Of a stretch of DNA of 64,000 bases, positions 7,101-63,635 are shown one piece after another. Where the stretch lies: NCBI RefSeq assembly GCF_026571515.1, contig NW_026852876.1, positions 1 to 64,000 of the forward strand. Direction: 5' to 3'. The first letter of the stretch is position 1, and each line of letters opens with the position of its first letter. Below the pieces are notes generated by a model. That model searched no databases. It was not told where the DNA came from and was given only the letters and a program-made list of their open reading frames with translations. The stretch comes from Ruditapes philippinarum (lineage: Eukaryota). The position numbers and the translations under genes are program-made.

Positions 7101-10100
7101 TAACTACTAGAGAATTATCTCTGAGGCAACATCATTTTTTTTTATCTTCTGTTAGTATTTCAAACTGTAAGAAGTAATACCTACCCTGGCAATTTCACCG
7201 GAATGAACGTTGAGAGAGTTGATTATTGCTGGGTCGCTGCTGGGTTCAACAATTTTGATGATTGAATCCGAGGATGTGAATATACCTCCATCAGTGGGAA
7301 CCAGTCCAGTAAGTCGACGTTCATTGCCAATATCAAATGTCTGCAGAAAAAGTCAGATTGGTTTATTTATTTTTGTATGATATCTAGAAGTATTGACGGC
7401 TGTGAATCATAGACCCACTAATGTTCAAGGTGACTTGGATACATTAAGAAAGGAGCAAATTTTGTGGCATAAAATACAAGGTGAATCACCAGATAGAATG
7501 GTTTTTGTGTAAAATGATGTCAGATAATGTGAACTATAAGGAAATCCTTTATACTTTTAAACTTAACAGACCATTCTGTCCTGTAAAAAAATTCAAAGTT
7601 TAGTTATGTATCACAAATATAACAGCAAAGAATAGTTGATTTCCCAATATAAGTTTATGTAGTTTTGACAATCTTCAGTTTGAATGGTCAAAGCCATGAT
7701 GACCTTGGTCATTAACAAACAGACCTTAAAATCATCATTATCAGGTATCATCTAGAAATCATGACCAATCTTCACAGCCAAAGCTTTCTCTATTGGTCAG
7801 ACAAGCTTTTAGTGATCATGGCCAAAATGACCTTGACCTTTGACCTTAAAATCAATAGGGGACATCTTCTAGTAATGACTAATCTCCATACTCTAGCCCT
7901 TAGGGGTTTTGGAGAAGTTTCTTTAAAAATATTTTGCTATATACATAAGGAAAACAAATGATCCTCAAGCAAGGACAAATTTTGACTTCAGGGCCATAAC
8001 TTGAACATTTTTTTTTTCTCTTTTGTTTGCTACAGCAATGAGAACTTTTCATGAAAGGATTATTTTTTAACAACTTTGAAAGATTTTTGTACCAGGAAAT
8101 GCTTGCAAAGTTTTAGCAACATTAGGAGATGTTCTTTAATACAAAAACTGATGGTGCACAACAGATACATCTACCAGGTAAGTAACAATAGCTCACAAAA
8201 TGAGCTGTAAATAAATCATAGCAAAATTATTATGACACTGAAATTATTTAATAGGGTAATAATAAACATTAGATTCATTATCCAGTAGTTGCTGGTTTGA
8301 TCCTCTAGCAGCGCAAGATTTCTCCATGACATTTGATCTAGGACATTGAGTTTAATAGTCATTAATAGTCATTTGTTTCTCACCGCTGATTCAGAAATTA
8401 TGTAGGATTAGTAGTCTGTCACTTTTGGAGAAATTGTTAAATACTAGTTAGTTATCCAGCATGGCCTGTAAGGTGAACCAGCTGTCAAGCTATGACCATA
8501 CATGTATTTAAAACAACGTTAAACAACCAGACAAACCAACAAACAAACATTTTCATTATGACATTGTGAACATTTGCATTAATCACCAATCAGACAATCA
8601 TGCCTTATAGGCAGTAGCCTAAGCATATAATAATATATAACTTAAATGATAGCAGGAAAGTTATAACTATGACTCGATAAGACACAAAACCTCACCTTTA
8701 TCAGACTCTCGTCAAAGAGACCATCAGTTGTATCCATCACATTTAGTTTACCAGCCTTGTCTCCCATCCATAACTGATTATTCTGGTAACTCATACTCGG
8801 TACAAAACTCTCAGTCTGTAACAAACAAAAACTGGCGTCTTTTAGTATAATAAATCTATGTTTATGATGTGTAAACATGGGTACAAGTTAAAACTGTGAG
8901 AAAACCTGAAAATCCTGAAAAGGTTATGATATTATTCAACAATAGACAAATTCTTTACAAAAATTTGTAAATTTATTTTTTCCCCTAATTATTACAGCAG
9001 CAGGCCTCCAGAAGATACCCAGAAAAACTACCATTGTACTAATATTTCAAAATCCCTCCTCAAAAACATAGTTTAAAGAAACAGAAATGACACTTCAAAA
9101 TGTTCATATTTAAACATTCTTGCCCTAAAAACAGTTTGCTTTTACGACAATATACCTTCATTTTTTATCCTACGGAATACCTTCATCCAGGTTTTTTTTC
9201 TAGTACCATGTGATTGCACAGGACAGTATCGCGACCATTGATCCGGAACACATGGAATCCGGGATCGTATCAAACATAGAGGGAAACAAATAAAATGCTT
9301 TGATTTTGATATCAGTAGTATTTTATGGCACTAAAAATTATAACTGATAATTTCATAGTATACATGTATATGATTACCAATATATCGATTTAAACTTTAG
9401 CATGAAACATGATGAGGGCCTACTCATTGACGAAAATTGATCAACAACCTTGGGCGTACCAGATACTGGGATTTTTCCGAACTACTGTTGTGACGATGTT
9501 GAATGAATTATCCTCTGCTATTTATATTGGCTACTGCCTTAGTAAAGTAGTAGATTATGCAAAGAAAAAACACAATATATTGATGCTTTTGTCAACTAAA
9601 TTAAGATGTCATTAATAATGGATATACACAATTAACTTAACTTAATCACAATTTATCATTTACTTGGAATTTTACTTCATTTTTTCCATTTTACCATCTG
9701 GAGGCAAATGGCTTTAAGGCCTTATCTTGGACGTTCATAAATCCAATCTTTAATCAAAATCAAGATATCACTAGCTGAAGCTAGAATTGTAAAACATTGT
9801 TTTTACAAAATTTTAATTGTTACAGTTTTCATCATACCTTAAACGTCTTATATTTTTTGCCTGCCACCCTGTCATATATAGCCACAGATTTGTCCTCACT
9901 TCCTGTAATAACGTATTTGTCGTCTGCTACCACACTCAGAACCGGTTGTGAATGGTAATGTTTCTTGATGCAATCATCTGGTGAGCGTGGGTCTAACATG
10001 TATAAACGCTTGTCAAAGCCACAGGCAGCAATAAAGTTTGGCTCGTAATAAAGGCCAAGAATAGCTGTTTTCAATCTGTAAATAGGTATTCAATTTAAAC

Positions 10101-13100
10101 TGTAAAATGATGTTCAATTTAATCTGTAAATAGATATTCAATTCAATCTGTAAATTATGTATTATTAGATTATTAAAGCGATACTTTACCCATCTAAATG
10201 TAAATAGTGAGTGTACAGGTAAAAGTAATGTTATTTAAATAAATCGGAAAATACGACTCAATTATTATATGCCAGGTAGCATAAAACAAATATTTAAAAG
10301 ATATTATGTAGTGAAAGATATTAAACAATTAGTTTACCCTTAAACATTTCAGAAACAAGAGGGCCATGATGGCCCTAGATCGCTCACCTGACCCATCAAA
10401 CTCATCCAAACAATTACCTAGACAAGCATTCTGACCAAGTCTCATGACAGGTGAGTCAAAAATGTGACCACTTCAGTGTGAACAAGGATTATCCATATTT
10501 GAGCAGTGTGACCTAGTTTTTTACCCAGGTGACCCATATTCAAACTTGACCTAGAAATCATCAAAACAAACTTTCAGACCAATTTCCAGGATACTTGGAT
10601 CAAAACAGTAGCAACTAGAGTGTTAACAAGATTTTTCTATTTTTAGCTCCGGTGACCTAGTTTCACATGCGATTTCGAACTCATAAGAGCAATTACCTAG
10701 ACAAGCATCCTGACCAAGTTTGATGATAATTGAGTCGAAAATGTGACCACTAGAATGTTCACAAGGTTTTTCCATATTTGGGCGGTGTGACCTAGTTTTT
10801 CATCCAAAATGACCCATGTTCGAACTTGACTTAGAAATCATCAAAACAAACTTTCAGACCAATTTACAGGATATTTGGATCAAAACAGTAGCCACTAGAG
10901 TGTTAACAAAATTTTTCTATTTTTAGCTCCTGTGACCTAGTTTTTCATCCAAGATGACCCATGTTCGAACTCATCCGAGCTATTACCTAGGCAAACATCC
11001 TGACCAAGTTTGATGATGATTGAGGCAAAAATGTGACCTCTAGAGTGTTAACAAGGTTTTTCTATTTTTAGCTCTTGTGACCTAGTTTTTCATCCGAGAT
11101 GACCCATGTTCGAACTCATCCGAGCTATCAACTAGATAAGCATCCTGACCAAGTTTGATGATGATTGAGGCAAAAATGCGACCGCTAGAGTGTTAACAAC
11201 AAAATGTAAACGGACGACGGCCGACGGACAATCATCGATCCTAAAAGCTCACCCTGAGCATGCTCAGGTGAGCTAAAAAGAGATAGTTGGCTTATTGGCT
11301 AAACCAAGAAGTCCCTGTGCACTTAACTTCATTTAATGAAATGTGACCACATATAAAGTTTTAAGCTTATAACTAAACTAGTTTTAATGTTATGTTCCAA
11401 TAAATGTGTGATGGATGGACAAATGCTCTTAGGAATACATATTTGTTGGAAATTTCCGTGGCCTAGTGGTTAAGATCAGTTGCACCTCACTGCTTTCGGT
11501 TCGAATCCCACCAGGTAGTTTGAATTCTTTCCATGAGGAAGCTTTCCTTCCAGCTTGCTTACAGAACATCAGTTGTTCTATTCAGATGCCTATTTATGCC
11601 TGAAATAATACACAAAGGGGCACCAGAGTTCTTTTACCAGTAATGCTGGAAAATCGGCATACATGTTTGACCTTTACAGTTTCAGTAAGACTTAGGAAAT
11701 CTTATAGTAACATTGCCATTAGCAAAGTTTCAAAATTACTTATGTTTAAAACAGATCTTACTTTATTTCCGAACTTTTTGTGACAGCACCATTGTTGAAG
11801 TCCCACAGACGTATGAAAGTATCCCATGAGCCTGTGACAAGTGTGTCATCATATGATGCCATTGACCACACCCAACCCTGAAAAATTAACAAAACTATGG
11901 CTTAACTAGACAATACTGCAGACAGCAGATATTGGATATTACATGTATGTGTGCCTCTTTTGACATCAAATATTAAATTTGTAGATAGGATCACTCTGTT
12001 GTGCCTCATTGTAAATTTGCATCTAAATGTATAACACATGACAACATGCATCTTACTTGTAGCCCCTCCTTGAATTTTATTTGATAAAGAAATGTGAGAT
12101 GTTTATAATGTTTAGAATTTGCACATATCAGTTTATCTTGTAATTCAGTTAAGTAAGTTTGGTTTTTGTGATAGAAGAGACAGGCTATCTGTGAACATAC
12201 TATAGAAAGTGATATCACTTTTTCTGGATTTTAGGTACGCAACCTACCTTATGAGCTTTTGTCTCGGAGGCAACAATGAGATCTTTTTCTTGCCCCTCTT
12301 TTGCACAATCATATTTTGTAAGATCCACAATGTTAAAATGACGATCTCTTGAACCAACTGCTAAAAATTTCCCTTCCTGTAAAAGATCATTAGTTCAACA
12401 AATTAATGATTAAAATGATTTATAGAACTGTTGTAGAAGTCTAAACATCAATCTTTAAGCTAAATACAACTGTTTGACCACATGGACATGATTTAATAAA
12501 TATCATTTGCAAAGGTCTACAAGGCAGTGCTACTTGGAAAAATATCTCAGTGCTACTTGGAAAAATATCTAAGTTCACTCAGGGCAAAAATCAAGTAAAA
12601 TTTCATTCTAGGATTATATACCTAACATGTTGACATCCATTTATTATCTCAAAGGTATGCGTGAAGTCTCAAGCAAATACCTTCATTTATTGATGAAATA
12701 AAAAGTTGCACATAAAGAATTATATGTATGCAAAACTTAGGTGCAAGTGTGTCAAAAAGTTATATTAAAGTATAGTGAAGTTCAGAACATTTCTTCACCT
12801 TCGTGCAATAACGGGTTAACTCCTTACATAATTTAATAAGAGTTTACCCGTTACTGCACTAATGTGACGATTGGTACCTTCATTAAATGAACAACATCCA
12901 CAGCTGCAAAAAATCCTTCCTTTAATATAAAATGGTTAAAGTGTTTGTCTGGGTTTGACCACAGCTTGTGAACTTCCTCACGCTCCATACATGCTTTATG
13001 CCAGTTGAAATCTTCTCCTATAATACATGGAAATGAGAATAGTTAATAGAATTATAATGAAGAAATAGATCTGAAATGTACCTGAAACAATTCTAATGAA

Positions 13101-21558: not shown

Positions 21559-22299
21559 TTCCGTCGTCCGCCCGTCCGCCCGTCCGTAAACTTTTACTGT
21601 AAACGACATCTCCTCATAAACCGCTAAGCCATTTTATCTAAACTTCACAGGAATGTCCCTTTGTTGGTCATCTTAAAATTTAATTCCATGCAAAACTCTG
21701 GTTGCCAAGGCAACCAAAAGAAAAAAACTTAAAATATCTTCTCTTAAGAAACGCAAAGAGCTATAGAGCTTAGATATTTGGCATAAAGTGTCTACCAGGT
21801 TTGTTCAAATAAAAGCCTTAGGGTCAAAATTGGCCCCGTCCCAGGATGTCATTGATTTCCCTATATGTATATAGTAAAAACTTAAAAAAATATTCTTTAA
21901 AAAAAAACCAAAAGAGCTAGAGCTTAGATATTTAGCATGAAACATCTTGTAGTGAGTGTCTACCAAGTTTGTTCAAATGAAAGCCCTGGGGTCAAAATTG
22001 GCCCTGCCCAGGGGTCATTAATTTTCCTATATATATTTATAAAAACAAAAAAGGGCTTCTTTAAAAAAAACAAAGAGCTAGAGCTTACATGTTTTGCATG
22101 AAACATCTCCTAGTGAGTGTCTACTAATTTGTTAAAAAAAGCATTGGGGTCAAAATTGGCCCGCTTCAATTGATTTTCATTATATGCATATACAAATGTA
22201 GTAACAACAAAAATGTCCTTTTAAAAAACCAAAATTAATTAAATTAATTGAGTACTCTGACTCAGGTGAGCGATTTAGGGCCATCATGGCCTTCTTGTT
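21559..22299 (-). mobile_element. Helentron-like non-autonomous element with ~160-bp repeats
   Basis: Reverse-orientation end (CAGGTGAGCGATTTAGGGCCATCATGGCCTTCTTGTT) related to the 10354 element; three units (AAAGAGCTA at ~21755, 21911, 22072); CCGT microsatellite. Confidence 0.7.
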
Positions 22300-34843: not shown

Positions 34844-36419
34844 TTGACATACATGGGGTTATCTTTTTTTATTTCAAAACAAAAAGTGGAAGGAAGCTTT
34901 CTGAACATAATTAGCATCAATTACGAAAACTTCTGAAAGGAAATTATTTATTTTTATGGAATTGTACCAGAAGAAGACCTTTTAACAGAGATAATTGGTT
35001 TTTATAAAGGTAAGTCCGCTGTTAAGGCAGTTTTATTATAGCTTTTTTTAACATTGTCGCTGCAGATGGAATCAGGAAACAGGCTGCAAGAAGCAAACCA
35101 CGAATTACCAAGTTATTACTAGTCTTAACAAAAATGTATCTAAAATTCAGTTTCAAAATGCTACCAATACGATCAAAGTTCTGATATTCTTACGGCTTCA
35201 TGTAGCATATAGCATTATTTAGGGGCTGATTTCAATCAGATTGTAAATGCATCTAAAAAATTCAGAAAGTTTTTTACAAACTAAAATGTATCGCTGCTGC
35301 TGAATCTAAAGGGTTGATCAGTTTAACCTAGCATACGTTCCATTGAAACACTCTATTTCCCTTCCAATACCCAATAAGGTTTCCAGAGGGAAATCACAAT
35401 TTTTAAAATTTAAAGTATCCCCCGAAATGCCCACAAAACATTGTTCTTAGAAAAGCCCGACTTTCATAATCGCACCGAAACCAGCCTCCAATGTTGATCT
35501 TTATTTCTAATATAATTGTTAAACAATTTTGAAACAGCACCATCCAAGCAACATTCCTTTGATTTTTTGCTGGTGTAGGAGAGAAGAGTGTACGGACATG
35601 CATAAATATCAGATTTACACTAAACGGATGTTCCTCCGATTTGTCTGTTTAAACTTTGATTTTCTTTTGCAAAATTTACATCGAAATGTTTTGTTTTACG
35701 GAACGACTGTGATGTTCAACACTAACCTTACGTACTGAGCATGTACGGACGGGCGAACGGACCGACGGGAAGTGAGTGATCATAATAGATCACAATGAGC
35801 TTGTTGTGCTCTTGCGAGATAACTAGACAAAATGGCGTGGTTTACGTGTCAAATCAAGTTCTATTCTCTCATGAACACAATTAAGCTATTACATTTTCAG
35901 TTGCAGTTCTACCCCGCTTATAAAACTATTGCTTCTGGTGTTCACTGGGTAAAATATATATTTAGACATAACACTTGAACAAACACACTCCCTCTATTTC
36001 TAAATGTCTTACAGTAGTATCTACATTGAGATGTAACCTGATTTTTTCTATATCTATGCATGGACACAAACGTAATGTCACATTGGTTAATCAGATCATT
36101 CCTGATTTCAATATTATTCGCTTCAAAATTTGACGGGAAGAGATAACGGCAATAAGTGTGCGATACAAGTGGTTTACTGATGATAGGATAATCTAAATCT
36201 GTTTGGTTAATGATTAACATTGACAAGAAACTCCTAACCTTCCGTGATAAATTTTGTTCATTATTTACAGCCATGAAAGACGGAATTGTTCTCATTGAAT
36301 TATTTCACTAGTGTATAATTGTTAATGTATGCAAACCAGTCTCATAAATTTGGTACTTTTTTGTTTCAGAACGACGTGTTACCTGACACGAAACTCTTCA
36401 ACTTGTTCAAAAACTTGAA

Positions 36420-41890: not shown

Positions 41891-44800
41891 TTAAAGCTCA
41901 TCAGCTGTGTGAGAAGGAGGTTTCAGGTCAAATTTCTCTATTGCCCTTTTCATCGTCTTTACAACTGAAATGAGAACAAAGAAACACATGTTAAACAAAC
42001 TTTAACTCTAAAATAAAGTACAATTTTTTCAACAAAGAGTGCCATGATAATTATGCATATAGGAATCAATAATTTCACAGAAGATAGGCTAATTGCTTAC
42101 AAAATGAATCAATTCTTAATAACTTGAAAATCAAAATCAACCTGTGTTTTAATATTATATGCTTACATGCCAAATTGGAAGACAAGAACTGAAATCCTTC
42201 GAAAGACATTCTGATGAAACCACAAATTTCCCAAAGAAATTGCTTATAAGGGGCAAAACTCTTATCAACAAGATATGTTTGTAAAACATGTATGCCCCCT
42301 ATCAGCAGCCAATTAGTCATGTGATAAGGTTATTATGCATGACTTCTGACCCAGTGATCAAACAATTAATAAGGGTTATAAAGTATCTACTGGTCATGAC
42401 TTTGACCCCTTGACCCAAAACTCAATAGGGGTCATCTGCTGGTCACAACCAATCATCATACAAAGTTTGAAGTTCCTAGGCCTAGGCGTTTTTAGTAAAT
42501 TGATCAGAAACCGTTTTTACCTACAAGGTCAATGTGACCTTGACCTTTGACCCCTTGACCCCAAAATCAATAGGGGTCATCTGCTGGTCATGACCAATCA
42601 CCATGCCTAGGTTGAAGTTCCTAGGCCTAAGGGTTCTCTTATTATTGATCGGAAACCGTTTTAACATACAAGGTCAATGTGACCTTGACCTTTGACCCCA
42701 AAATCAATAGGGGTCATCTGCTGGTCATGACCAATCACCATGCCAAGTTTGAAGTTCCTAGGCCGAAGCGTTCTTTAGTTATTGATCAGAAACCGTTTTT
42801 ACTTACAAGGTCATTGTGACCTCGACCTTTGGCTTAATCCCAAAATCAATAGGAGTAATCTGCTGGTCATGACAAATCACCATACCAAGTTTGAAGTTCC
42901 TAGGCCTAAGTGTTCTTGAGTTATTGATCAGAAACCGTTTTTACTTACAAGGTCAATGTGACCTTGACCTTTGACCCCTTCACCTAAAACTCAATAGGGG
43001 TCATCTGCTGGTCATGACCAATCATCACACAAAGGTTGAAGTTCCTAGGCCTAAGCGTTTTTAGTAAATTGATCGGAAACCGTTTTTACCTACAAGGTCA
43101 ATGTGACCTTGACCTTTGACCCCTTGACCCCAAAATCAATAGGTCATCTGCTGGTCATGACCAATCACCATACCAAGTTTGAAGTTCCTAGGCATAAGGG
43201 TTCTTAAGTTATTGATCGGAAAGCATTTTTACCTACAAGGTCAATGTGACCTTGCCCTTTAACTCCTTAACCCCAAAATCAATAGGGGTCATCTGCTGGT
43301 CATGACCAATCACCATACCAAGTTTGAAGTTCCTAAGCCTAAGGGTTCTTTAGTTATTGATCGGAAACCGTTTTTACCTAAGAGGTCAATGTGACCTTGA
43401 CCTTTGACCCCTTGACCCCAAAATCAATAGGGGTCATCTACTGATCATGACCAATCACCATCTCAAGTTTGAAGGCCCTAGGCCTAAGGGTTCTTTCATT
43501 ATTGATCGGAAACTGTTTTTACCTACAAGGTCAATGTGACCTTGACCTTTGACCCCTTAACCCCAAAATCAATAGGGGTCATCTGATTGGTCATAACCAA
43601 TCACCATACCAAGTTTGAAGTTCCTAGGCCTTAAGGTTCTTTAGTTATTGATTGGAAACCGTTTTTACCTACAAGGTCAATGTGACCTTGACCTTTGACC
43701 CCTTGACCCCAAAATCAATAGGGGTCATCTACTGATCATGACCAATCACCATACCAAGTTTGAAGTTCCTAGGCCTTAAGGTTCTTTAGTTATTGATCGG
43801 AAACCGTTTTTGCTTAAAAGGTCAATGTGACCTTGACCTTTGACCCCTTGACCCCAAAATCAATAGGGGTCATCTACTGATCATGACCAATCACCATACC
43901 AAGTTTGAAGTTCCTACGCCTTAAGGTTCTTTAGTTATTGATCGGAAACCGTTTTTGCTTTCAAGGTCAATGTGACCTTGAACTTTGACACCTTAACCCC
44001 AAAATCAATAGGGGTCATCTACTGGTCATGACCAATCACCATACCAAATTTGAAGTTCCTAGCCCTTAAGGTTCTTTAGTTATTGATCGGAAACCGTTTT
44101 TGCTTTCAAGGTCAATGTGACCTTGACCTTTGACCCCTTGACCCCAAAATCAATAGGGGTCATTTACTGATCATGACCAATCACCATACCAAGTTTGAAG
44201 TTCCTAGGCCTTAAGGTTCTTTAGTTATTGATCGGAAACCGTTTTTGCTAACAAGGTCAATGTGACCTTGACCTTTGACCCCTTGACCCCAAAATCAATA
44301 GGGGTCATCTACTGATCATGACCAATCACCATACCAAGTTTGAAGTTCCTACGCCTTAAGGTTCTTTAGTTATTGATCGGAAACCGTTTTTGCTTTCAAG
44401 GTCAATGTGACCTTGAACTTTGACCCCTTGACCCCAAAATCAATAGGGGTCATCTACTGGTCATGACCAATCACCATACCAAGTTTGAAGTTCCTAGGCC
44501 TTAAGGTTCTTTAGTTATTGATCGGAAACCGTTTTTGCTTTCAAGGTCAATGTGACCTTTACCTTTGACCCCTTGACCCCAAAATCAATAGGGGTCATCT
44601 ACTGGTCATGACCAATCACCATACCAAGTTTGAAGTTCCTAGGCCTAAGGGTTCTTTAGTTATCACTCGGAAACCATTTGGTCTACGGACCGACGGACCG
44701 ACAGACCGACGGACTGACAAGTGCAAAGCAATATACCCCCTTTTCTTCGAAATGGGGGCATAATAAGGAGTCGATTGCATCTAAATCTTACTTAATGTGT

Positions 44801-55039: not shown

Positions 55040-58000
55040 ATGCACGATGCATCTCGGGTGATGAAGCTTTTTAATGTTTTTAATGAAAGATTCATCTTCC
55101 ATCACCCGACCGTGCCGACTTTTAGAACGGTTGGGGAAATCCTGTGGAAGAAGCAGCCCGACCAAAAACCCTAAATGTGATGAGTAATTGAAAGAGTACA
55201 TTGTTCAATTCGTATTATGAGTTTGAATCAGGTGTCCGACAAGGAACAGGTGTCGAGACAATAAAATATATCGGCCGTTATTTCCTTATATCAATCATTT
55301 AATTTTACTAATTGGTTTAAATGATAAGCATCCAGGAAGAAAGTTGGCTATGATTATTTTGGCAATATTCATCTTTATTCCGATAATAATACTTTCTAAA
55401 TGTTGATTAAGTTATGATGTGTTTTGGCGAAAATTTGATGTTTTACTACCTTGGATGCAAAATGAACAGCTAGAGTTATTAGTCCAATAGATGTAGACGT
55501 TACAGCTATGTTATAGTTTATGTTGGATCAAGCCCCTTACGTCTAATAGTTATTGCTCTCAAAAAACGCGTTTAAAGCATTCTTGAAAAAATTTAAAAAT
55601 GTCTGTTGACCTTGCCCTTTGAGGGCTTTATTCAAGCCTATCTTCTGAAATTACTTTCAATTGACATGGTCTTATCATTAACAAAACTTAAAACAATGTT
55701 ACTTATCAATTAAAACATAAATTGATAAATATCACCGTCTTATTGTCGCTCATCGGCCATACGTGGGTTAAGTAAAGCGTTTTACAGATATTCAATTTTT
55801 TGAAGCGCGAAAAATATATAGATTTGAACACACTGCACCCGGATGCCAATAGGGCGCAATTATTATCGTTAGAAAAAATATTACCGATTAGAAAACTTCT
55901 GGACTCATTAAACGCTTGCATTTGAATAGCCAACAGATTCAGCGCACTGTATATGGCGGACCATTGTACTATCAGCATGTACAAGAATTTAATTTAAATG
56001 AGAGGATTCTAATCATGAACTTTTCGGTTGTGAACAGTTCAATAATATTTCTGTTTAAAGGTAATTTATTTTTAGTTTTCGTTTCATAAGATAGAGTCTA
56101 ATATTGAAATGTAAATACCACCTGTTTAATGTTTAAATTCATTAGATCTAAATCGATTGTCTATAGTCAATCTATTTTTGCTACACGATTGCAAAGATCT
56201 AGTTAAAGACCCTAACGGTAACAGTGGAAAATGAAAAAATGTTAAAATATACAAGATTAGGATGAATTGATAAATGAAATAGGCTTACGATATATCTCTA
56301 TAATAGGACTAAGTGCTATCAGGCAATTTTATAACAGTACACAATATTATTTCTTGATATTATGTTTCTCACAAAATACAACTCAGATTACTGCTCTATG
56401 GATTCAGGCTTATGAGTTAAAAAGGTTTAGGTTTATTAAACAATTGATTTTGATGGCTCCTGCTAAGTCATTAGACATAGACCAAGTGGTTTATAAAAGA
56501 CCAGAATACTAAAAACCACACGCTGACCGTCCGTGACACGGCATACATCACGGAAAAATACAGAATTTACATGTCACGGGTTATGCCACGGGTCAGGGCC
56601 AAAAAACCCTTCCTTTGTCAGAAGGCCGAAACCATTAGGCTACTTCCCCCAACCACAAACTAAGCCTCTTTTTTCCCCAGTTTGGTCCAAAATCCCCAGA
56701 TACTTTTGAAATTATCCCATAGAATTTAGAACAAAAATATAAAATGATGGGTGTTGAATAAAGGATTATTGACTGACCTTAATTTGATTTCCCAAGTGCT
56801 TCTTTCGTTTAACAAACCTTTGTAAAGTTTGTGTTCAAATTTGAGACGTTATGCCAAATCATGCATGATTTTTCCCAAGAAAAGCTGAGGCACCCCTTCC
56901 CACAAAAGGTGTTTAATTGGCCCTGGCTTGTTTGTCTATTCCTTGTTAAGATTAGTTTAATATAATATTAATATAAGTTACTAAAGATTTTATTTGTCTA
57001 TTATTGAATTATCTATTTATAGTATTATCTTTAATCTACATTACTATCACGATTCCGCCAGATCACAACTTTATAATATTACAACATAACGTCACGTTGA
57101 GGACGTGAGAAGACGACGTCAGTTAAGAGGTAGAAACATAGAATTAAATGTCATTTGAGTACAAACCAAATTTTACTTCTTAAATATACAATCTGAGCGC
57201 CGATATCGGCGCTTCCTTTTAGACCAATAGAAAGGGGTGGCGAAACAGTGAGAATTTTTAAAGGAGACGGATCTAAAAGCACAGCGATTGGCGAGCTGAA
57301 CGGACATCGTTGGATAAACCAAGGCACTGTGGGTCTTTCCACAGCAAAGAAATACCGCGGTTAAAGAAAAATATTTTATATACATACGAGATGGGGCATC
57401 TGAAAAGAATTTGTAAATTTATTACCATGAACCTGAATGCATAACGGTCCTTTTGTTTCAATACATCGGCAATGAACAAATCTCACAGACCGATGTCCCA
57501 TGGAAATTCAAAAAACCAGGAACGCCCTTTTTTAAGATCAAAGCCAAGCAGTCTAGAAAAATGGCCTAAATGAAACAAAATCGGAGGATCCGAAATTTAG
57601 TTTATAAAAAAGAAATTCATGACAACGCACGAACAGCCAAGGACTTAAAAACAAATTCCAAAATCTGCGACATAAAGGAAACACAGAACTTAGAATATCT
57701 CGTGATGCCTTATACAATCTGCCATGCTTTAGCTATAGACACAAGCAATCCAGTTCATTCAGGTAATCAATACTTTCCCAAATTTAGTTGTTATATGCGG
57801 ACATAAACTTATGTTCGAAGAACTGGAAAGAGTTCTTTACCTTGACAATGAAAGTCAGTGCCTCAGCTATGACACAACTTTTCAACTTGGGGGATTTCTA
57901 CGTATCTACGTTGATATTTAGGCATATTCTTTTTAAGGAAATGCCAATGCATGCCAGCAATATTTATGCTGCATGAGCGCAAATTCCAAAACACCCACGA

Positions 58001-61000
58001 ATTTATTGTTCAATTTTTTCAAAGAAAATATAAGATAAAAAAAAACGCTGTTTGCTTGTGTCACAGACGGTGAACAGGGGATCATGAATGCTATGTCTTG
58101 TGTTCCAACACTTGTTGATGTGAGATGTTGGAACCACATGTTAAATGATATTGGAAGATGGCTGACTGAACATGGATTTTCCAACTCAATATGTCAAATG
58201 ACTTATCATTTGCAAAAACACTTCTAAGACTAACTTAGTAAGAGTATAATATATGCACTAGAAATATTAGTTTTGAAATGGGAAAAAGACACTTATCCCC
58301 CACACTTATCCCCCGTACACTTTATCCCTCAAATTTTGAAGACACTTCACCCCTTGAGTCTGAAATCATTTAGATGCTCCACCCTTGAACCCTATATTAT
58401 TTCTAGAGTAAATATTTTAACAACAAATAAACCGTTTATTTCTTAATTTTCTTTATTCTTAGTATTTTTTTATGAAAAACAATGTACATGTATTTAACTC
58501 CAAGTAATTTTCAATATATTTTTAACATTTAAACATGTTTCATGAAAGACAATTAACATCACACTCACATATATCTTAAACACGAAACTTTGGATATGCA
58601 TGAAAAACAATTTTTTACTCCAATTTAAGAAAAAACAAATGTATTGATAAACGTCATACAATAATAACATGCATTATGGTCGAATTGATTAGTGGCCAAA
58701 ACTGGGTCATGTATACCATCATATAAATGATGTTTACTTTCAAAGGGGTTAATCCATGCGCGCGCATCCTTAAAGTTCTGATACCGCGAACACTTCATCG
58801 GCCGGTATTTCGAAGAAAAACAAGTGGTGTGAAGAAATCAGAAAAGGTATGAATTTAATTTGTTTTGCAAAGAAGATGTCCTAACTTCTAGTTTTTATAT
58901 ACAAAATGTCTTGAAGTAACTTTTTTCTGTTTTGTCAGTATTTCGCGTTGAATGCGATTTTGATTCTGGATAGTGCGTACACCCGGCGTTGAAATGTTAC
59001 AGAAAATGAGCAAATATCGATTAAACTGGCCGTTTTAAACTGCTGGAAGTTATTCTGTTGTAGAATCCTTTTCAAAAATATATTTTCAACCTTCGTTCCA
59101 ATTCATTTGCTCTAAAAAAGTATTTAAACGCACTATTTACAGAAAACAGAGATTATGATATTGCGTACACTCTAAAAAAATTCCAGATACTGCGTACACA
59201 TTAGTATTCAATTGATAGAAAGTACATTTTATTTCATGCTTTCCAGTGTTTTATTGTAATATATCAAATGATTATATTCAGATAAACCACTAGATCTAGT
59301 GCAATTTATAAAATATAATTTTCACTGTAGCCGGACTATATCTGAATGCGGATGAAAAGAAAATTAAACTAAATGGAATAACTGGCTGAAATAAGTGCCG
59401 TCATACGTAAAGTTTGCTTCCTTAGGAAAAGAAAGTCGATGTCAACATACATCATGTTAAAAATTTAGCAAAATTAGAGAAATTTAACATAACTATATTT
59501 CAAAATTGATGATGTGACATCATGATGTGACATTATGACGTCACAAAGGAGAATGTGCGACATTACGCGGCAAAATCAGTAAAAAAAATACTTAAAATCA
59601 CTTATAAAGCATGAAATAAAAAGAAAATTTATTTGTTTTACATATAAGATTAAAATATATTTCATTCGTGAACACCGTCTATTATATTGTCACTCGTGGC
59701 TACGCCACTCGTGAAAATATTGCATCTGGTGTTCACTCAGTGAAATTATATTTCAATCTTACATGCAAAACAAACAAAATTAATATCCTCTATTTATTCG
59801 AAGCAGTCTAAGGTTTATAAATGACAAAGCGGATTGCATGGGTGTCCCTTTTAAAGAATTCTTTAAAATCTACATCATAGACAATGTTTAGAATTAACAT
59901 TTATTTATACAATTTGTTTAGGTTATTTATTTAAAACCTGGTGAATAATTGTCTATCTTGATAATGTTTTTATACTCTACATTTCAAAATAAATTACTTC
60001 TTACAGTCAAATAAATATCTTATTTCAGAAAATGAATGTGTGTCGATTTTGTGGTGAATTCTTTGCCAGTGAATCTTCTCTCAGACAGCATGAGGCACGA
60101 CATCGGCAAAATGGTCCCTACAAATGTGATATATGTAGTCAAGTGGCTTTTTCGGAGTACCATTACAAAACACACATGCAGCGTCATTCCTCAGAACGCA
60201 AGTACGAATGTAAATGCGGCAAATCGTTCAAGACATCTTATGATTTAAAACGCTATGAACAAAGAGGCCTTCTCTAATAATAAAGATGTTAGTGATCACA
60301 AAGATAGGCACGAGAATGGAAAACGTCATAAATGTGGAAAGTGTGGCAAAGGAAACACTGATAAAAGTTCGTGGAACATGAACGCATTCCAAAGAAATAA
60401 CTTGCTGCAAGCGATTTTAGTTCAAGTTCCAAATATATGCTTTCTTGTGCAATTTAATAAACCATGTTTTTGCCCATGAAGTGTTTATATCTGAGTGCTT
60501 TGCCACACTTTCCACATTTATGACGTTTTCTTTTCTCGTGCTTATCTTTGTGATCACTAACATCTTTATTATTAGAGAAGTCCAAGCCACATCATCACAT
60601 TTGAATTCCTTTGTTTGGCTCTTTCTTTGTTCGTGGCGTTTTAAATCATGAGATGTCTTGAACGATTTGCGACATATACATTCGTACTTACGTTCAGAGG
60701 AATGCGCGGCATGTGTGTTTTGTAATGGTACTCCGAAAAAGCCACTTGACTACATATATCACATTTGTAGGGACCATCTTGCCGATGTCGTGCCTCATGT
60801 TGTCTGAGAGAAGTTTCACTGGCAAAGAATTCACCACAAAATCGACACACATTCATTTTCTGAAATAAAATATAAAATTGACTGTAAGAAGTAATTTATT
60901 TTGAAATATAGAGTATAAAAACATTATCAAGACAATTATTCACCAGGTTAAATTACATAAACATTTAACAAATTGCATAAATAAATGTTAATTCTAAACA

Positions 61001-63635
61001 TTTTCTAGGATGTAGTTTTTAAATGATTGCCATGCAATCCGTTTTATCATTTTATAAACCTTAGCCTGCTTCGGATAAAATTTTTCTATCAATTGCATAG
61101 TTATGTGTACGCAGTATCTTGATTTTTTTAGAGTGTACGCAATATCATAATCTCTGTTTTCTGTAAATAGTGCGTTTAAATACTTTTTTAGTACAAATGA
61201 ATTGGAACGAAGGTTGAAAATATATTTTTGAAAAGGATTCTACAACAGAATAACTTCCAGCTGTTTAAAACGGCCAGTTTAATCGATATTTGCTCATTTT
61301 CTGTAACATTTCAACGCCGGGTGTACGCACTATCCAGAATCAAAATCGCATTCAACGCGAAATACTGACAAAACAGAAAAGAGTTACTTCAAGACATTTT
61401 GTATATAAAATCTAGAAGTTAGGACATCTTCTTTGCAAAACAAATTAAATTCATACCTTTTCTGATTTCTTCACACCACTCGTTTTTCTTCGAAATACCG
61501 GCCGATGAGGTGTTCGCGGTATCAGAACTTTAAGGATGCGCGCGCATGGATTAACCCCCTTGACTTTGCTTGCTCTACTTTCTCAACACATGGATGATCA
61601 TAAAAACAGCTTTATTTGGATTTAAGTTTTTAAAGGCTTTAAGTGTTTTCAATAAGAAATAGTACATGGCTTTACTAAAATAAAATTTAAACTGGATTTT
61701 CCCATTAACATCAGTGCTGTTTTAAGAAATTTAGCCTCTTCCTCTTCTCCAGAAGTATATATATTTCCCCTATTTCTCAATTTTGAGAATTTGACAGAAT
61801 TTTGGAAAACTGCTGTCTATTTTTCATTGGGAACATTGCAGTATTCTGGTATTAGTTTTATAAGGGAATTTTTTTTTGCCCTGAACCTGGTTGAGAAAAC
61901 ACTGGTATCCATATTACAGCTTTATTTGTCTTTACAGGACAGAAAAACTGTTGATGAGTATTTCCAGTAAGCGGACTGCAGCTGAAGATGTTAATACAGA
62001 TCAACATAGTAAAAAAGCAAAGACAGAGGGAACTGGGTAAATATTAAATTTGTTTTATTTATATAGATTTTATCCTCCCCCAAAAGAATGTTTGCCCAAA
62101 TTAAAGCTTTGGTGTAAAAAATGTCTCATTCCTGTTTTTTTTTTGGGGGGGGGGGTAATGGCTGCTGTCATGGCATATGCAAATGAAATCTCTAAAAATC
62201 ATTGAAAAAGAAGCATTCTAACTTTTCTCCTTTTGGTTACTGGGGGGGGGGGAAGTGGGAGGGGGGTGGCAGCTTTATATTTATACACTGTTAATAAATT
62301 TTCTTTGAGTTTTTATACACCTTTGAAAAATGTAATGAGAAATTTATGAATAATTGACCTGTCATATCACTCAATACTGAAATCAACATCAAATGCAATT
62401 GCTTGATACCAAATTAAAAGTTGGGTTACAGCAGGGCTCAAGCTAGGTTCAAAATTTAGGGAGAAGTCACTTCTCCCTCCAGCTGCTTTAGGGAGAAGTG
62501 GGGAGACTTTAGGGAGAAGTGAGGAGATTCATTTATCGATGTTTGTTGTATGTTATTGCAATTATGTTGACTCACTGTACATATCTTATTAAATGAATTG
62601 GATTTGTGTTACAACAGAATATTCAATTTTAATTTAAAAGTAGTTTGAAACAAGTAATAATAAGAATGAGTATCATGTAATGCAACCATTGCATTAAATG
62701 AAGATAAAAAAGCCATAGTTGATTCCTATCATGGATCATATCATGGGTGGATTAACAGTTATTCCCTTCTGATTTACTATTAAAAAGCTTGCGCCGGACA
62801 TTATATTCATATTCACTTATGTTGTAAAGAAAATGAAAGTAGATATTAAACGAAAGAATCGATCTTTAATTTAACTACATTTGTAATAAATACAGTGTAA
62901 TACGCCGTCAATTTTATCAAATTTAACTCGTCGACAAAAAAGTTTATCATAACTTTCATTTAAAAGTACCGTTACAGTTATATGTCGAGCGGTCCTCTTA
63001 ATTCTGACAATCATTCGATAGTGAAAATTTAATTGACGTTTGATCCGTCCATCATAAATAATTGTTACTGTATGTTAGCGATTTAATGATTGGTTTAATA
63101 ATGTCGCCTCGATTGAAACGTGAATTACGATTGGTTTCTCGCACGTATCGGTAATCTCGCCGTGGGCGGAGTCTAATTGTTCCTCGAGTGTCTGTTAATT
63201 AGACTTTTATGACATGTTGGTTGATTGAGATGCATGACAGTCCCTTTTTCTGGCGGCGAGGGTAAATAAAGCAAACACACACAACATGTTATTCACAGTT
63301 ATTGTTGGTAATTTTCAATAATGGATCAATAAAATCGGGCGACTTCATCTTCGCTTTCATGTAGGATGTCGGCGAAGTCAGACGGAATTCGGCGACTATT
63401 TCGCCCGAATCGCCCAGTAGCTCGAGCCCTGTTACAGGAATAGGATTAGAACCTTTTCTACCTGTTGAATTTAGTTTGAGGGATCTAAGGCCATCTTGAC
63501 CCTCTTGTTTCTAAATTTTTACAATTTCATCAAATATTGAAGTTTGTTTCTTTTGACTTCTATAGGAGCCACCTTGAAGTCATGCAGAGAATCCAGGTTC
63601 ACACAGTAGAAACTGTTGAGGCATGCTTACACGAG
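55040..63635 (+). CDS. MTREX: Exosome RNA helicase MTR4, first three exons (gene continues beyond the window); exon 1 frame-disrupted in this sequence
   Basis: Exon 2 (61938-62036) and exon 3 (63566-63635) join in frame: TEKLLMSISSKRTAAEDVNTDQHSKKAKTEGTGSHLEVMQRIQVHTVETVEACLHE, matching the MTR4 motif RVKVQSVETVEGCTHE. Exon 1 (55040-55183) reads MxDAFGDELFNVFNED... once single-base insertions are removed, and ends in the required phase 2 (GA|GTAATT). Confidence 0.82.
57150..58280 (+). pseudogene. Decayed Mutator-like transposase fragment
   Basis: Across frameshifts: LSYDTTFQLGDFYVSTLIFRHILFKEMP, HERKFQNTH, FACVTDGEQGIMNA, RCWNH. These correspond to the D, D and CxxH motifs of invertebrate MULE transposases. 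Confidence 0.75.
58281..58390. mobile_element. Left terminal repeat of a Mutator-like element
   Basis: Tandem GACACTT(A/C)(T/A)CCCC motifs, the same style as the reverse complement of the TIR at 18741-18847; truncates the upstream transposase. Confidence 0.5.
59222..59792 (-). mobile_element. Helentron-like insertion in the left arm of the foldback element
   Basis: Absent from the right arm; minus strand begins TAGAGGATATTA and contains CACGAGTGGCGTAGCCACGAGTG. Confidence 0.6.
60032..60350 (+). pseudogene. C2H2 zinc-finger gene, left-arm copy
   Basis: CRFC-x12-HEARH, CDIC-x12-HMQRH and CKCGKSF fingers after a TTTCAG acceptor; a deletion near 60268 breaks the frame before further finger remnants (HKDRH, CGKCGK). 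Confidence 0.75.
60480..60856 (-). pseudogene. C2H2 zinc-finger gene, right-arm copy
   Basis: Same N-terminus (MNVCRFCGEFFASE...). Frameshifts near 60705 and 60590. Retains KEFKCDxCGLDFSNNKDVSDHKDKH and HKCGKCGKALRYKH, part of which is deleted in the left copy. Confidence 0.75.
62432..63431. mobile_element. hAT-like non-autonomous element (CAGGG...CCCTG) with 6-bp TSD TTACAG
   Basis: 14-bp TIR CAGGGCTC(A/G)AGCTA; subterminal GGGAGAAGT and GGCGA(A/C) motifs; TTACAG at 62426-62431 and 63432-63437. Lies in MTREX intron 2. Confidence 0.75.

What the first reader, a model, noticed from the sequence alone, without database searches (positions are those of the whole stretch)
58741..61562. Foldback transposon whose ~1-kb terminal inverted repeats each contain a spliced, inward-facing C2H2 zinc-finger gene
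Seen: a 2.82-kb near-palindrome with a ~145-bp spacer, ends CAAAGGGGTTAA...TTAACCCCCTTG, flanked by ACTTT on both sides. Each arm holds a CpG-containing promoter-like end, a donor (AAG|GTATGA, ~58846 and its mirror), an intron, a TTTCAG acceptor and a zinc-finger ORF. The two copies have different lesions and together reconstruct a protein of at least 5 fingers. No transposase is inside. Established: CA..TG ends with a 5-bp TSD only partly resemble Transib/RAG-like (CAC) or hAT5 elements, and Polinton ends differ. Inference: this is an internally deleted member of a long-TIR element family I cannot assign, which carries a zinc-finger gene as part of the TIR.
Basis: partly seen in the sequence, partly recalled or inferred. 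Interest (0 to 1): 0.8.

Follow-up and report, generated by a model that had tools for sequence, protein, structure and literature searches.

The report
P-like transposon carrying exonuclease and zinc-finger
The palindrome is a shrunken, non-coding copy of a large jumping gene whose full-length form carries a P-element-type transposase with a phage-type exonuclease built into it, plus a separate zinc-finger gene, a combination I found no description of.

Summary
The palindrome, ends and 5-bp duplication are real, but the true terminal repeat is about 460-480 bp and the zinc-finger (ZF) gene is not part of it. The window element is a non-autonomous derivative built from two copies of the ZF end of an 11.5-kb parent (G000:C12788). 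The parent has a 1,325-codon transposase frame on one strand and the ZF gene facing it. Nine of 11 transposase loci examined are complete elements with this layout: long repeats, CA...TG ends, 5-bp duplication. The predicted fold matches Drosophila P transposase (Z 27.0; RAG and hAT 8.4), with a lambda-type (YqaJ) exonuclease inserted after the first catalytic aspartate. Both active sites are conserved. It lacks the THAP domain and the 7-8-bp duplication of P and Galileo. Relatives occur in molluscs, an annelid and amphioxus. Ten literature searches found no description; Repbase and Dfam could not be searched. Inferred, not shown: the ZF protein replaces THAP by binding family-specific motifs repeated in the terminal repeats, and the exonuclease resects DNA ends. 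Splicing was not seen in RNA reads. Verdict: a new P-like lineage; the window copy is a decayed passenger.

The parts
58736..58740 (+). left target-site duplication ACTTT
   Evidence: 5-bp duplication in 35 of 40 family copies
58741..61562 (.). non-autonomous element, 2,822 bp, both arms derived from the ZF end of the 11.5-kb parent
58741..59200 (+). left terminal inverted repeat (family repeat about 460 bp; 97.3% identical to the parent's transposase end over 450 nt)
58844..58852 (+). donor-like site AAG|GTATGA ending a predicted CpG-rich first exon (GT at 58847)
   Evidence: sequence; donor-like sites 72-107 nt into the repeat in all 9 families (partly read by eye); use not shown
58975..59199 (+). 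three copies of GCGTACAC (58975, 59163, 59192), candidate protein-binding sites; mirrored at 61321, 61133, 61105
   Evidence: function inferred
59222..59792 (.). 571-bp insertion in the left intron, part of it a dispersed repeat; also in copies L032 and L038
60032..60277 (+). left C2H2 ZF frame, 81 aa, cut short by a 40-bp deletion; acceptor AG at 60027-60028; out-of-frame finger remnants run to about 60347
   Evidence: zf-C2H2 E 5.3e-10
   Evidence: maps to parent 10062-9918, next to parent 10282 onward in the other orientation
60479..60856 (-). right C2H2 ZF remnant; 71-aa frame from ATG 60856, 1-bp frameshift, cut at the junction in the fifth finger; acceptor CAG at 60862-60860
61103..61562 (-). 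right terminal inverted repeat with mirrored donor-like site (GT at 61456)
61563..61567 (+). right target-site duplication ACTTT

Best explanation
The window element is a non-autonomous cut-and-paste transposon moved in trans by an 8.6-12.5-kb parent of a P-element-like lineage. SHOWN: the parent has about 460-bp terminal repeats, CA...TG ends and 5-bp duplications; a transposase frame on one strand and a multi-finger C2H2 gene facing it; a predicted P-type fold with a lambda-type exonuclease inserted on a long helical stalk between the first and second catalytic aspartates; both catalytic sets conserved; no THAP domain; both window arms derive from the ZF end and their ZF copies decay neutrally. 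INFERRED: (a) one fold-back repair or conversion event replaced the transposase end by an inverted copy of the ZF end, and the product spread because both ends keep the cis sites (about 0.85); (b) each terminal repeat holds a promoter and short first exon spliced inward, so one repeat sequence drives both genes (about 0.7); (c) the ZF protein binds the family-specific motifs repeated near the tip and at 415-525 nt and takes the role that THAP has in P, which would explain why the repeat is so long (about 0.5); (d) the exonuclease resects 5' strands at the cut, either making the 3' overhang at the transposon end or opening the donor-site break to homologous repair that restores the donor copy and raises copy number (about 0.45 for either).
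For: Family and duplication; clean paralogous empty sites with a single 5-mer for L044, L051, L066, L077 and C4313. Parent: G000:C12788:172613-184100, TTATA on both sides, 1,325-codon frame. Layout in 9 of 11 loci, exact 5-bp duplication in 8 of 9, ZF on the opposite strand in 9 of 9; facing ZF also in 2 of 8 metagenome contigs. Fold: P transposase 6p5a Z 27.0, rmsd 2.9, 314 aligned over model 51-1194; exonuclease 3syy Z 16.0; RAG and Hermes 8.4; Foldseek E 3.4e-4 for 6p5a. YqaJ E 2.5e-9 at 389-534. In 77 homologs of 1,050 aa or more: D203 67, D724 74, E1284 67 (9 gaps each for D203 and E1284); exonuclease D489, E510, K512 76 each; THAP-like pattern 0. Repeated family-specific 8-mers in 7 of 9 repeats against 1-7 of 100 shuffles. 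ZF proteins of 5 families share a distinctive finger, 29-35% identity. ZF in short copies: 89/70/77 minor alleles at codon positions 1/2/3.
Against: No splice joint from the repeat to the ZF exon among the 15 joints listed (11 more hidden); reads covered the intron as deeply as the exon and were unstranded; one run had almost no ZF reads; one contig ran unspliced from intron into exon. The laid copy has a mutated donor, which weakens this test. A diverged short copy (L068) lacks the donor GT at both ends. Sequence-level P similarity is weak: profile comparison probability 1.9%, E 0.026; PF21787 passes its cut-off in only 2 of the homologs scanned and is absent from the parent protein. Only one near-intact parent of this family was found and its ZF end is error-rich (84% to the copies). 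No empty allele of the window site was found. 2 of 9 families show no repeated 8-mer. 13 of 77 homologs have their own N-terminal zinc finger. Motif retention in 32 of 40 copies is biased by how copies were found.
Confidence: 0.8

Rival explanations
1. The ZF protein is a repressor or regulator of the terminal-repeat promoters, or cargo kept for the host, and the transposase finds its ends alone through its helix-turn-helix and, in some clades, its own N-terminal zinc finger.
For: 13 of 77 homologs have an N-terminal C2H2-like finger (modelled as a zinc finger plus beta strands). The P helix-turn-helix contacts the terminal repeat (PMC7776569). ZF is dispensable in cis: 13 of 40 copies carry none.
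Against: ZF faces the transposase in 9 of 9 complete elements with unrelated terminal repeats and in 2 contigs from other samples, which fits an essential role; it does not separate targeting from repression.
Confidence: 0.35
2. The lineage is already catalogued in Repbase or Dfam (as P, as unclassified 5-bp-duplication elements, or under another name), so only the details are new.
For: Relatives are widespread: 825 clusters at E up to 1e-30, including Mytilus and Branchiostoma, whose repeats are heavily curated (recalled).
Against: Ten full-text searches found no P-like transposase with YqaJ. A bivalve transposon survey has no occurrence of YqaJ, exonuclease or THAP in its main text and lists no P family among its curated DDE families (PMC10294476 passages). 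Database names are 'uncharacterized' or 'YqaJ domain'.
Confidence: 0.3
3. It is a Transib/RAG-like or hAT5 element, as the CA(C) ends, 5-bp duplication and tail-to-tail gene pair suggest.
For: ProtoRAG has a tail-to-tail gene pair, 5-bp duplication, CAC ends and repeat-borne promoters (PMC7481187 passages). One family here ends CACAGCG and another carries GCCATCTTG.
Against: The model matches P at Z 27.0 against 8.4 for RAG and 8.4 for Hermes; the partner is a C2H2 array, not RAG2-like.
Confidence: 0.04
4. The palindrome is an assembly artefact or a one-off local inverted duplication.
For: No empty allele or long read across this site was obtained.
Against: 20 of 40 copies on other contigs have ZF in both arms, each with its own 5-bp duplication; the fold-back joint is present in raw reads of two independent runs.
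Confidence: 0.01

Closest known systems
P element / THAP9 (P superfamily)
   Same: Predicted fold from helix-turn-helix through split RNase H and helical insertion domain (6p5a, Z 27.0); DDE triad and DxxH motif; CA...TG ends.
   Different: 5-bp duplication against 8 bp; about 460-bp against 31-bp repeats; no THAP; inserted exonuclease; second gene; 1,300-1,700 aa. The position of GTP contact D444 is variable here (read by eye and the residue list).
Galileo (long-repeat P superfamily member)
   Same: 0.5-1.2-kb repeats, repeated internal binding sites, and repeats lengthened by recruiting internal sequence to give TIR1-F1-F1-TIR2 (PMC3688188 and PMC3573991 passages), the same rearrangement as the window copy.
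   Different: Galileo has THAP and 7-bp duplications; no exonuclease or second gene in the passages read.
KolobokE
   Same: A C/DxxH-class transposase with a lambda exonuclease-like domain (PMC9587614 passages).
   Different: [quoted passage not shown]
ISL2EU (PHIS superfamily)
   Same: Transposon-encoded YqaJ exonuclease (PMC4482050 passages).
   Different: YqaJ is in a second frame, the transposase is Harbinger-type with THAP, duplication AT, ends GG.
ProtoRAG / Transib
   Same: Tail-to-tail gene pair, 5-bp duplication, CAC-like ends, repeat-borne promoters; a C2H2 protein (host YY1) helps end recognition (PMC7481187 passages).
   Different: Different fold (Z 8.4); the partner is an element-encoded ZF array. 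The likeness is convergent.
Maize MuDR (recalled, no call)
   Same: Two genes transcribed towards each other from promoters in long terminal repeats.
   Different: MULE transposase, 9-bp duplication, no exonuclease.

Membership tests
P superfamily (P, Galileo, THAP9) | P-type split RNase H fold with helical insertion domain | tested here: met
   Z 27.0, rmsd 2.9, 314 aligned; E 3.4e-4; on a predicted model, mean pLDDT 76.3
P superfamily (P, Galileo, THAP9) | DDE triad with C/DxxH signature | tested here: met
   D203, D724, D1119/H1122, E1284 conserved in 67-74 of 77 long homologs
P superfamily (P, Galileo, THAP9) | [quoted passage not shown] | tested here: not met
   No Pfam THAP hit in any scanned homolog; THAP-like pattern 0 of 77. 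The parent's small upstream exons were read by eye only.
P superfamily (P, Galileo, THAP9) | 7-8-bp target-site duplication | tested here: not met
   Exact 5 bp in 35 of 40 short copies and 8 of 9 complete elements, confirmed by empty sites
P superfamily (P, Galileo, THAP9) | GTP cofactor binding | tested here: inconclusive
   Insertion domain aligned structurally, but PF21788 did not list these loci and the D444 position is variable (by eye)
P superfamily (P, Galileo, THAP9) | 17-nt 3' overhang on excised ends | not testable with these tools
   needs biochemistry
KolobokE | TTAA duplication and RR...YY ends | tested here: not met
   variable 5-mers, CA...TG
KolobokE | Exonuclease downstream of the transposase domain | tested here: not met
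   YqaJ at 389-534 lies between D203 and D724
ISL2EU | YqaJ in a separate frame, AT duplication, GG ends | tested here: not met
Transib / RAG-like | 5-bp duplication and CAC ends | tested here: inconclusive
   5 bp met; CAC in 5 of 9 families, CAA or CAG in 4
Transib / RAG-like | RAG1-type transposase fold as the best match | tested here: not met
   RAG listed at Z 8.4, rmsd 5.3, far below P at 27.0
hAT5 | hAT transposase fold as the best match | tested here: not met
   Hermes listed at Z 8.4, rmsd 6.7; the hAT5 definition itself is recalled

The most novel reading that the evidence does not exclude
An undescribed, superfamily-level branch next to P elements: a two-protein transposition system in which an element-encoded zinc-finger array sets end specificity in place of THAP and a built-in lambda exonuclease processes the break. 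It would be a natural modular transposase whose end recognition changes with the finger array, and a convergent match to the ProtoRAG layout.
Probability: 0.3. Interest if true: 0.87.

Novelty: new variant of a known kind. Interest (0 to 1): 0.72.

Why it matters
P elements are known as single-gene THAP transposons with 7-8-bp duplications. This lineage changes three of those traits at once and is old and widespread (bivalves, a gastropod, an annelid, amphioxus), with at least nine unrelated families in one genome, several with unbroken frames. It gives an identity to many proteins now labelled 'YqaJ domain, uncharacterized'. It also makes two open questions testable: why unrelated transposon groups (ISL2EU, KolobokE, this one) keep recruiting lambda exonucleases, and what very long terminal repeats are for. 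The window copy itself has no coding function.

Tried and rejected
Sequence search of solved structures with the single protein found nothing; the profile found only an exonuclease at E 0.024. Profile comparison with four canonical P-type frames from the same genome was too shallow. No relatives in IMG/VR viral contigs. The protein atlas returned only an unnamed YqaJ cluster. The N-terminal domain of one clade gave no clear structural match, best Z 5.0, and no THAP structure among the rows listed; that absence is not proof. No empty allele of the window site. Ten further transposase loci could not be fetched, so the 9 of 11 count rests on loci chosen from the 48 matches by score and room on the contig. 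Rejected: artefact, local duplication, Polinton, hAT5, Transib/RAG, KolobokE, ISL2EU, and ZF as part of the terminal repeat.

Full report
Observation. The element spans 58741-61562 with ACTTT on both sides. The outer 481 bp of the two arms are 97% identical; the left arm then has a 571-bp insertion, and the inner parts align with several deletions. Each arm has a donor-like site, a CAG acceptor and a C2H2 frame: 81 aa on the left, 71 aa on the right, each cut by its own lesion.

Family. The outer 440 bp gave 519 candidates in G000, of which 40 were scored, all at 96-100%. A 29-nt end pattern occurs 84 times against 0 for the reversed control. I examined 40 paired short copies, the window included. 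An exact 5-bp duplication flanks 35 (24 of 28, 11 of 12); three others showed 4 bp and two none. Of 43 flank junctions searched against 1.05 Mb of fetched DNA, 9 had spanning hits; L044, L051, L066, L077 and C4313 are clean empty sites with one copy of the 5-mer, the rest are too divergent or repetitive to use. Targets are AT-rich with C before and G after: C at -1 in 35 of 68 strand-symmetrised sites. Of the 40 copies, 20 have ZF in both arms, 7 in one, and 13 have none but carry 69-bp arrays; none matches the main transposase frame.

Parent. One end without a near partner led to G000:C12788:172613-184100, 11,488 bp with TTATA on both sides. It holds a 1,325-codon open frame on one strand and the ZF gene at the other end only. 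Its left repeat is 97.3% identical to both window ends; its right end is error-rich (84%). Mapped on this parent, both window arms come from the ZF end, and the 'spacer' is the ZF gene's own tail. Eighteen of 40 copies share breakpoints at parent 10242 and 9916-9966, and three more, the window among them, lie within about 60 bp, so one fold-back event founded the group (inference). Only L077 clearly keeps transposase-end sequence. The same joint appears in raw reads of two runs. ZF copies in short elements vary equally at all codon positions (89/70/77 over 45 arms) and the longest frame among 29 arms with a recognisable start was 138 aa: they are passengers.

Lineage. The parent protein has 48 matches in G000 (a floor). 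I took 14-20 kb around 11 loci, chosen by score and room on the contig. Nine are complete elements of 8.6-12.5 kb with inverted repeats of 430-590 bp (70 bp in one), ends CA...TG, an exact 5-bp duplication in 8 and one mismatch in the ninth, and a C2H2 gene on the opposite strand in all 9, weakly in C6155. The two exceptions are a locus at a contig edge and a deleted copy of this family. Outside, 825 clusters match at E up to 1e-30. Named homologs come from Mya, Dreissena, Mytilus, Ruditapes, Batillaria, Owenia and Branchiostoma (20 of the 150 listed proteins were looked up and 4 carried an organism name); one is labelled as a symbiont bin and is probably host DNA (inference). Two of 8 metagenome contigs reach far enough to show the facing ZF gene. 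In a tree of 55 long sequences the genome's families fall in several clades among other animals (P0020 left out as a likely duplicate). The host is probably a bivalve (inference from the nearest names).

Transposase. Pfam finds YqaJ at 389-534 (E 2.5e-9) and the P-type RNase H family above its cut-off in two homologs but not in the parent protein. Profile comparison with canonical P frames from the same genome was weak (probability 1.9%, E 0.026) though it paired the first aspartates. The model of residues 126-1325 (mean pLDDT 76.3) settles it: P transposase 6p5a Z 27.0, rmsd 2.9, 314 residues across the whole model; exonucleases Z 16.0 and 14.8; Tn5 9.3; RAG and Hermes 8.4, with Foldseek in agreement. 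The exonuclease sits on long helices between the first and second aspartates. Among 77 of 169 homologs with 1,050 aa or more, the DDE residues are kept in 67, 74 and 67 (gaps account for most misses) and the exonuclease D, E, K in 76 each; none has a THAP-like pattern, 13 have an N-terminal C2H2-like finger. Some of these homologs may come from this same genome.

Terminal repeats. The nine repeats share no sequence but share a plan: a CpG-rich tip, a donor-like site 72-107 nt in (found by pattern in four families, by eye in five), and an acceptor just before each frame. Seven of 9 carry a family-specific 8-14-mer three to five times, mostly two or three copies at 415-525 nt plus one near the tip or at 230-257 nt; 1-7 of 100 shuffles gave any such repeat. 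In this family it is TGCGTACAC, kept at both ends in 32 of 40 copies (biased by the search) and in the 78%-identical copy L068, which has lost the donor GT. ZF proteins of five families are 29-35% identical and share a distinctive finger.

Expression. Four runs were laid on L077:501-3290. Two raw RNA runs covered repeat, intron and ZF exon alike on both strands, a third had almost no ZF reads, and a contig ran from intron into exon. No donor-to-acceptor joint was among the 15 listed; 11 were hidden, only 4-6% of each raw run was read, and the laid copy has a mutated donor. Splicing is neither shown nor excluded.

Mechanism. Shown: cut-and-paste spread with 5-bp duplications, the gene layout, the predicted folds and the conserved active sites. 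Inferred: both genes are transcribed inward from the repeats; the ZF protein binds the repeated motifs and stands in for THAP (about 0.5; repression or cargo is the main rival); the exonuclease resects 5' strands (about 0.45). Lambda exonuclease degrades 5' strands to leave 3' tails (recalled), and P ends carry 17-nt 3' extensions whose making is not understood (PMC7776569 passage). Resection at the donor site would favour homologous repair, which can also yield fold-back derivatives like the window copy, as proposed for Galileo (PMC3573991 passage).

Known or new. It works like a P element but fails two defining traits, THAP and the 7-8-bp duplication, so I do not file it as a standard member. 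KolobokE and ISL2EU have the same nuclease in other positions with other duplications (passages). ProtoRAG shares the layout but not the fold (passages). Ten searches of the held library found no description. I saw listings for all hits and passages only of PMC9587614, PMC7776569, PMC10294476, PMC3688188, PMC4482050, PMC7481187 and PMC3573991 (also its abstract); no supplements were read, and those of the bivalve and Kolobok papers may list such elements. Repbase, Dfam and subscription journals were not searched. One earlier scan note reports a 12-kb P-like, zinc-knuckle and YqaJ element in another genome, an unchecked lead to a possible sister lineage.

Verdict. New variant of a known kind, interest 0.72. 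The value lies in the parent lineage, not in the window copy.

Noticed in passing
window 57570-58227: Frameshifted remnant with MULE-like transposase motifs (label recalled) about 500 bp left of the element; no relevant Pfam hit on the three pieces at E up to 0.1.
   Followed up: partly
L031, L035-L037, L039, L041, L043, L049, L050, L052, L065, L070, L073: 13 of 40 family copies carry 69-bp tandem arrays, often in both orientations, starting about 540 nt from the end, in place of the ZF gene; origin unknown.
   Followed up: partly
window 59609-59792 and 35886-35963: The right part of the intron insertion is a palindromic dispersed repeat found at several unrelated loci.
   Followed up: no
G000:C4313:5880-17467 and G000:C4476:73407-82031: One family's repeat holds GCCATCTTG, the YY1 site of ProtoRAG; another ends CACAGCG, close to the RAG heptamer; YY1-like cores occur in 4 of 9 families.
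   Followed up: partly
L088:4882-5871 (-): An 80-residue N-terminal domain (zinc finger plus beta strands, pLDDT about 88) in one clade of the transposases has no clear structural match.
   Followed up: partly
G000:C6155:257945-266915: A 204-aa frame resembling the end of a LINE reverse transcriptase (label recalled) lies inside this element, probably a nested insertion.
   Followed up: no
L129, L130, L139, L140: Canonical P-type transposase frames without exonuclease also occur in this genome.
   Followed up: partly
window 42400-44679, 10411-11199, 21787-22162: Tandem arrays of 145-161-bp units, the largest with 15.8 copies.
   Followed up: no
L070:2603-3604: Split mariner-like transposase frames (label recalled) near a family copy.
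   Followed up: no
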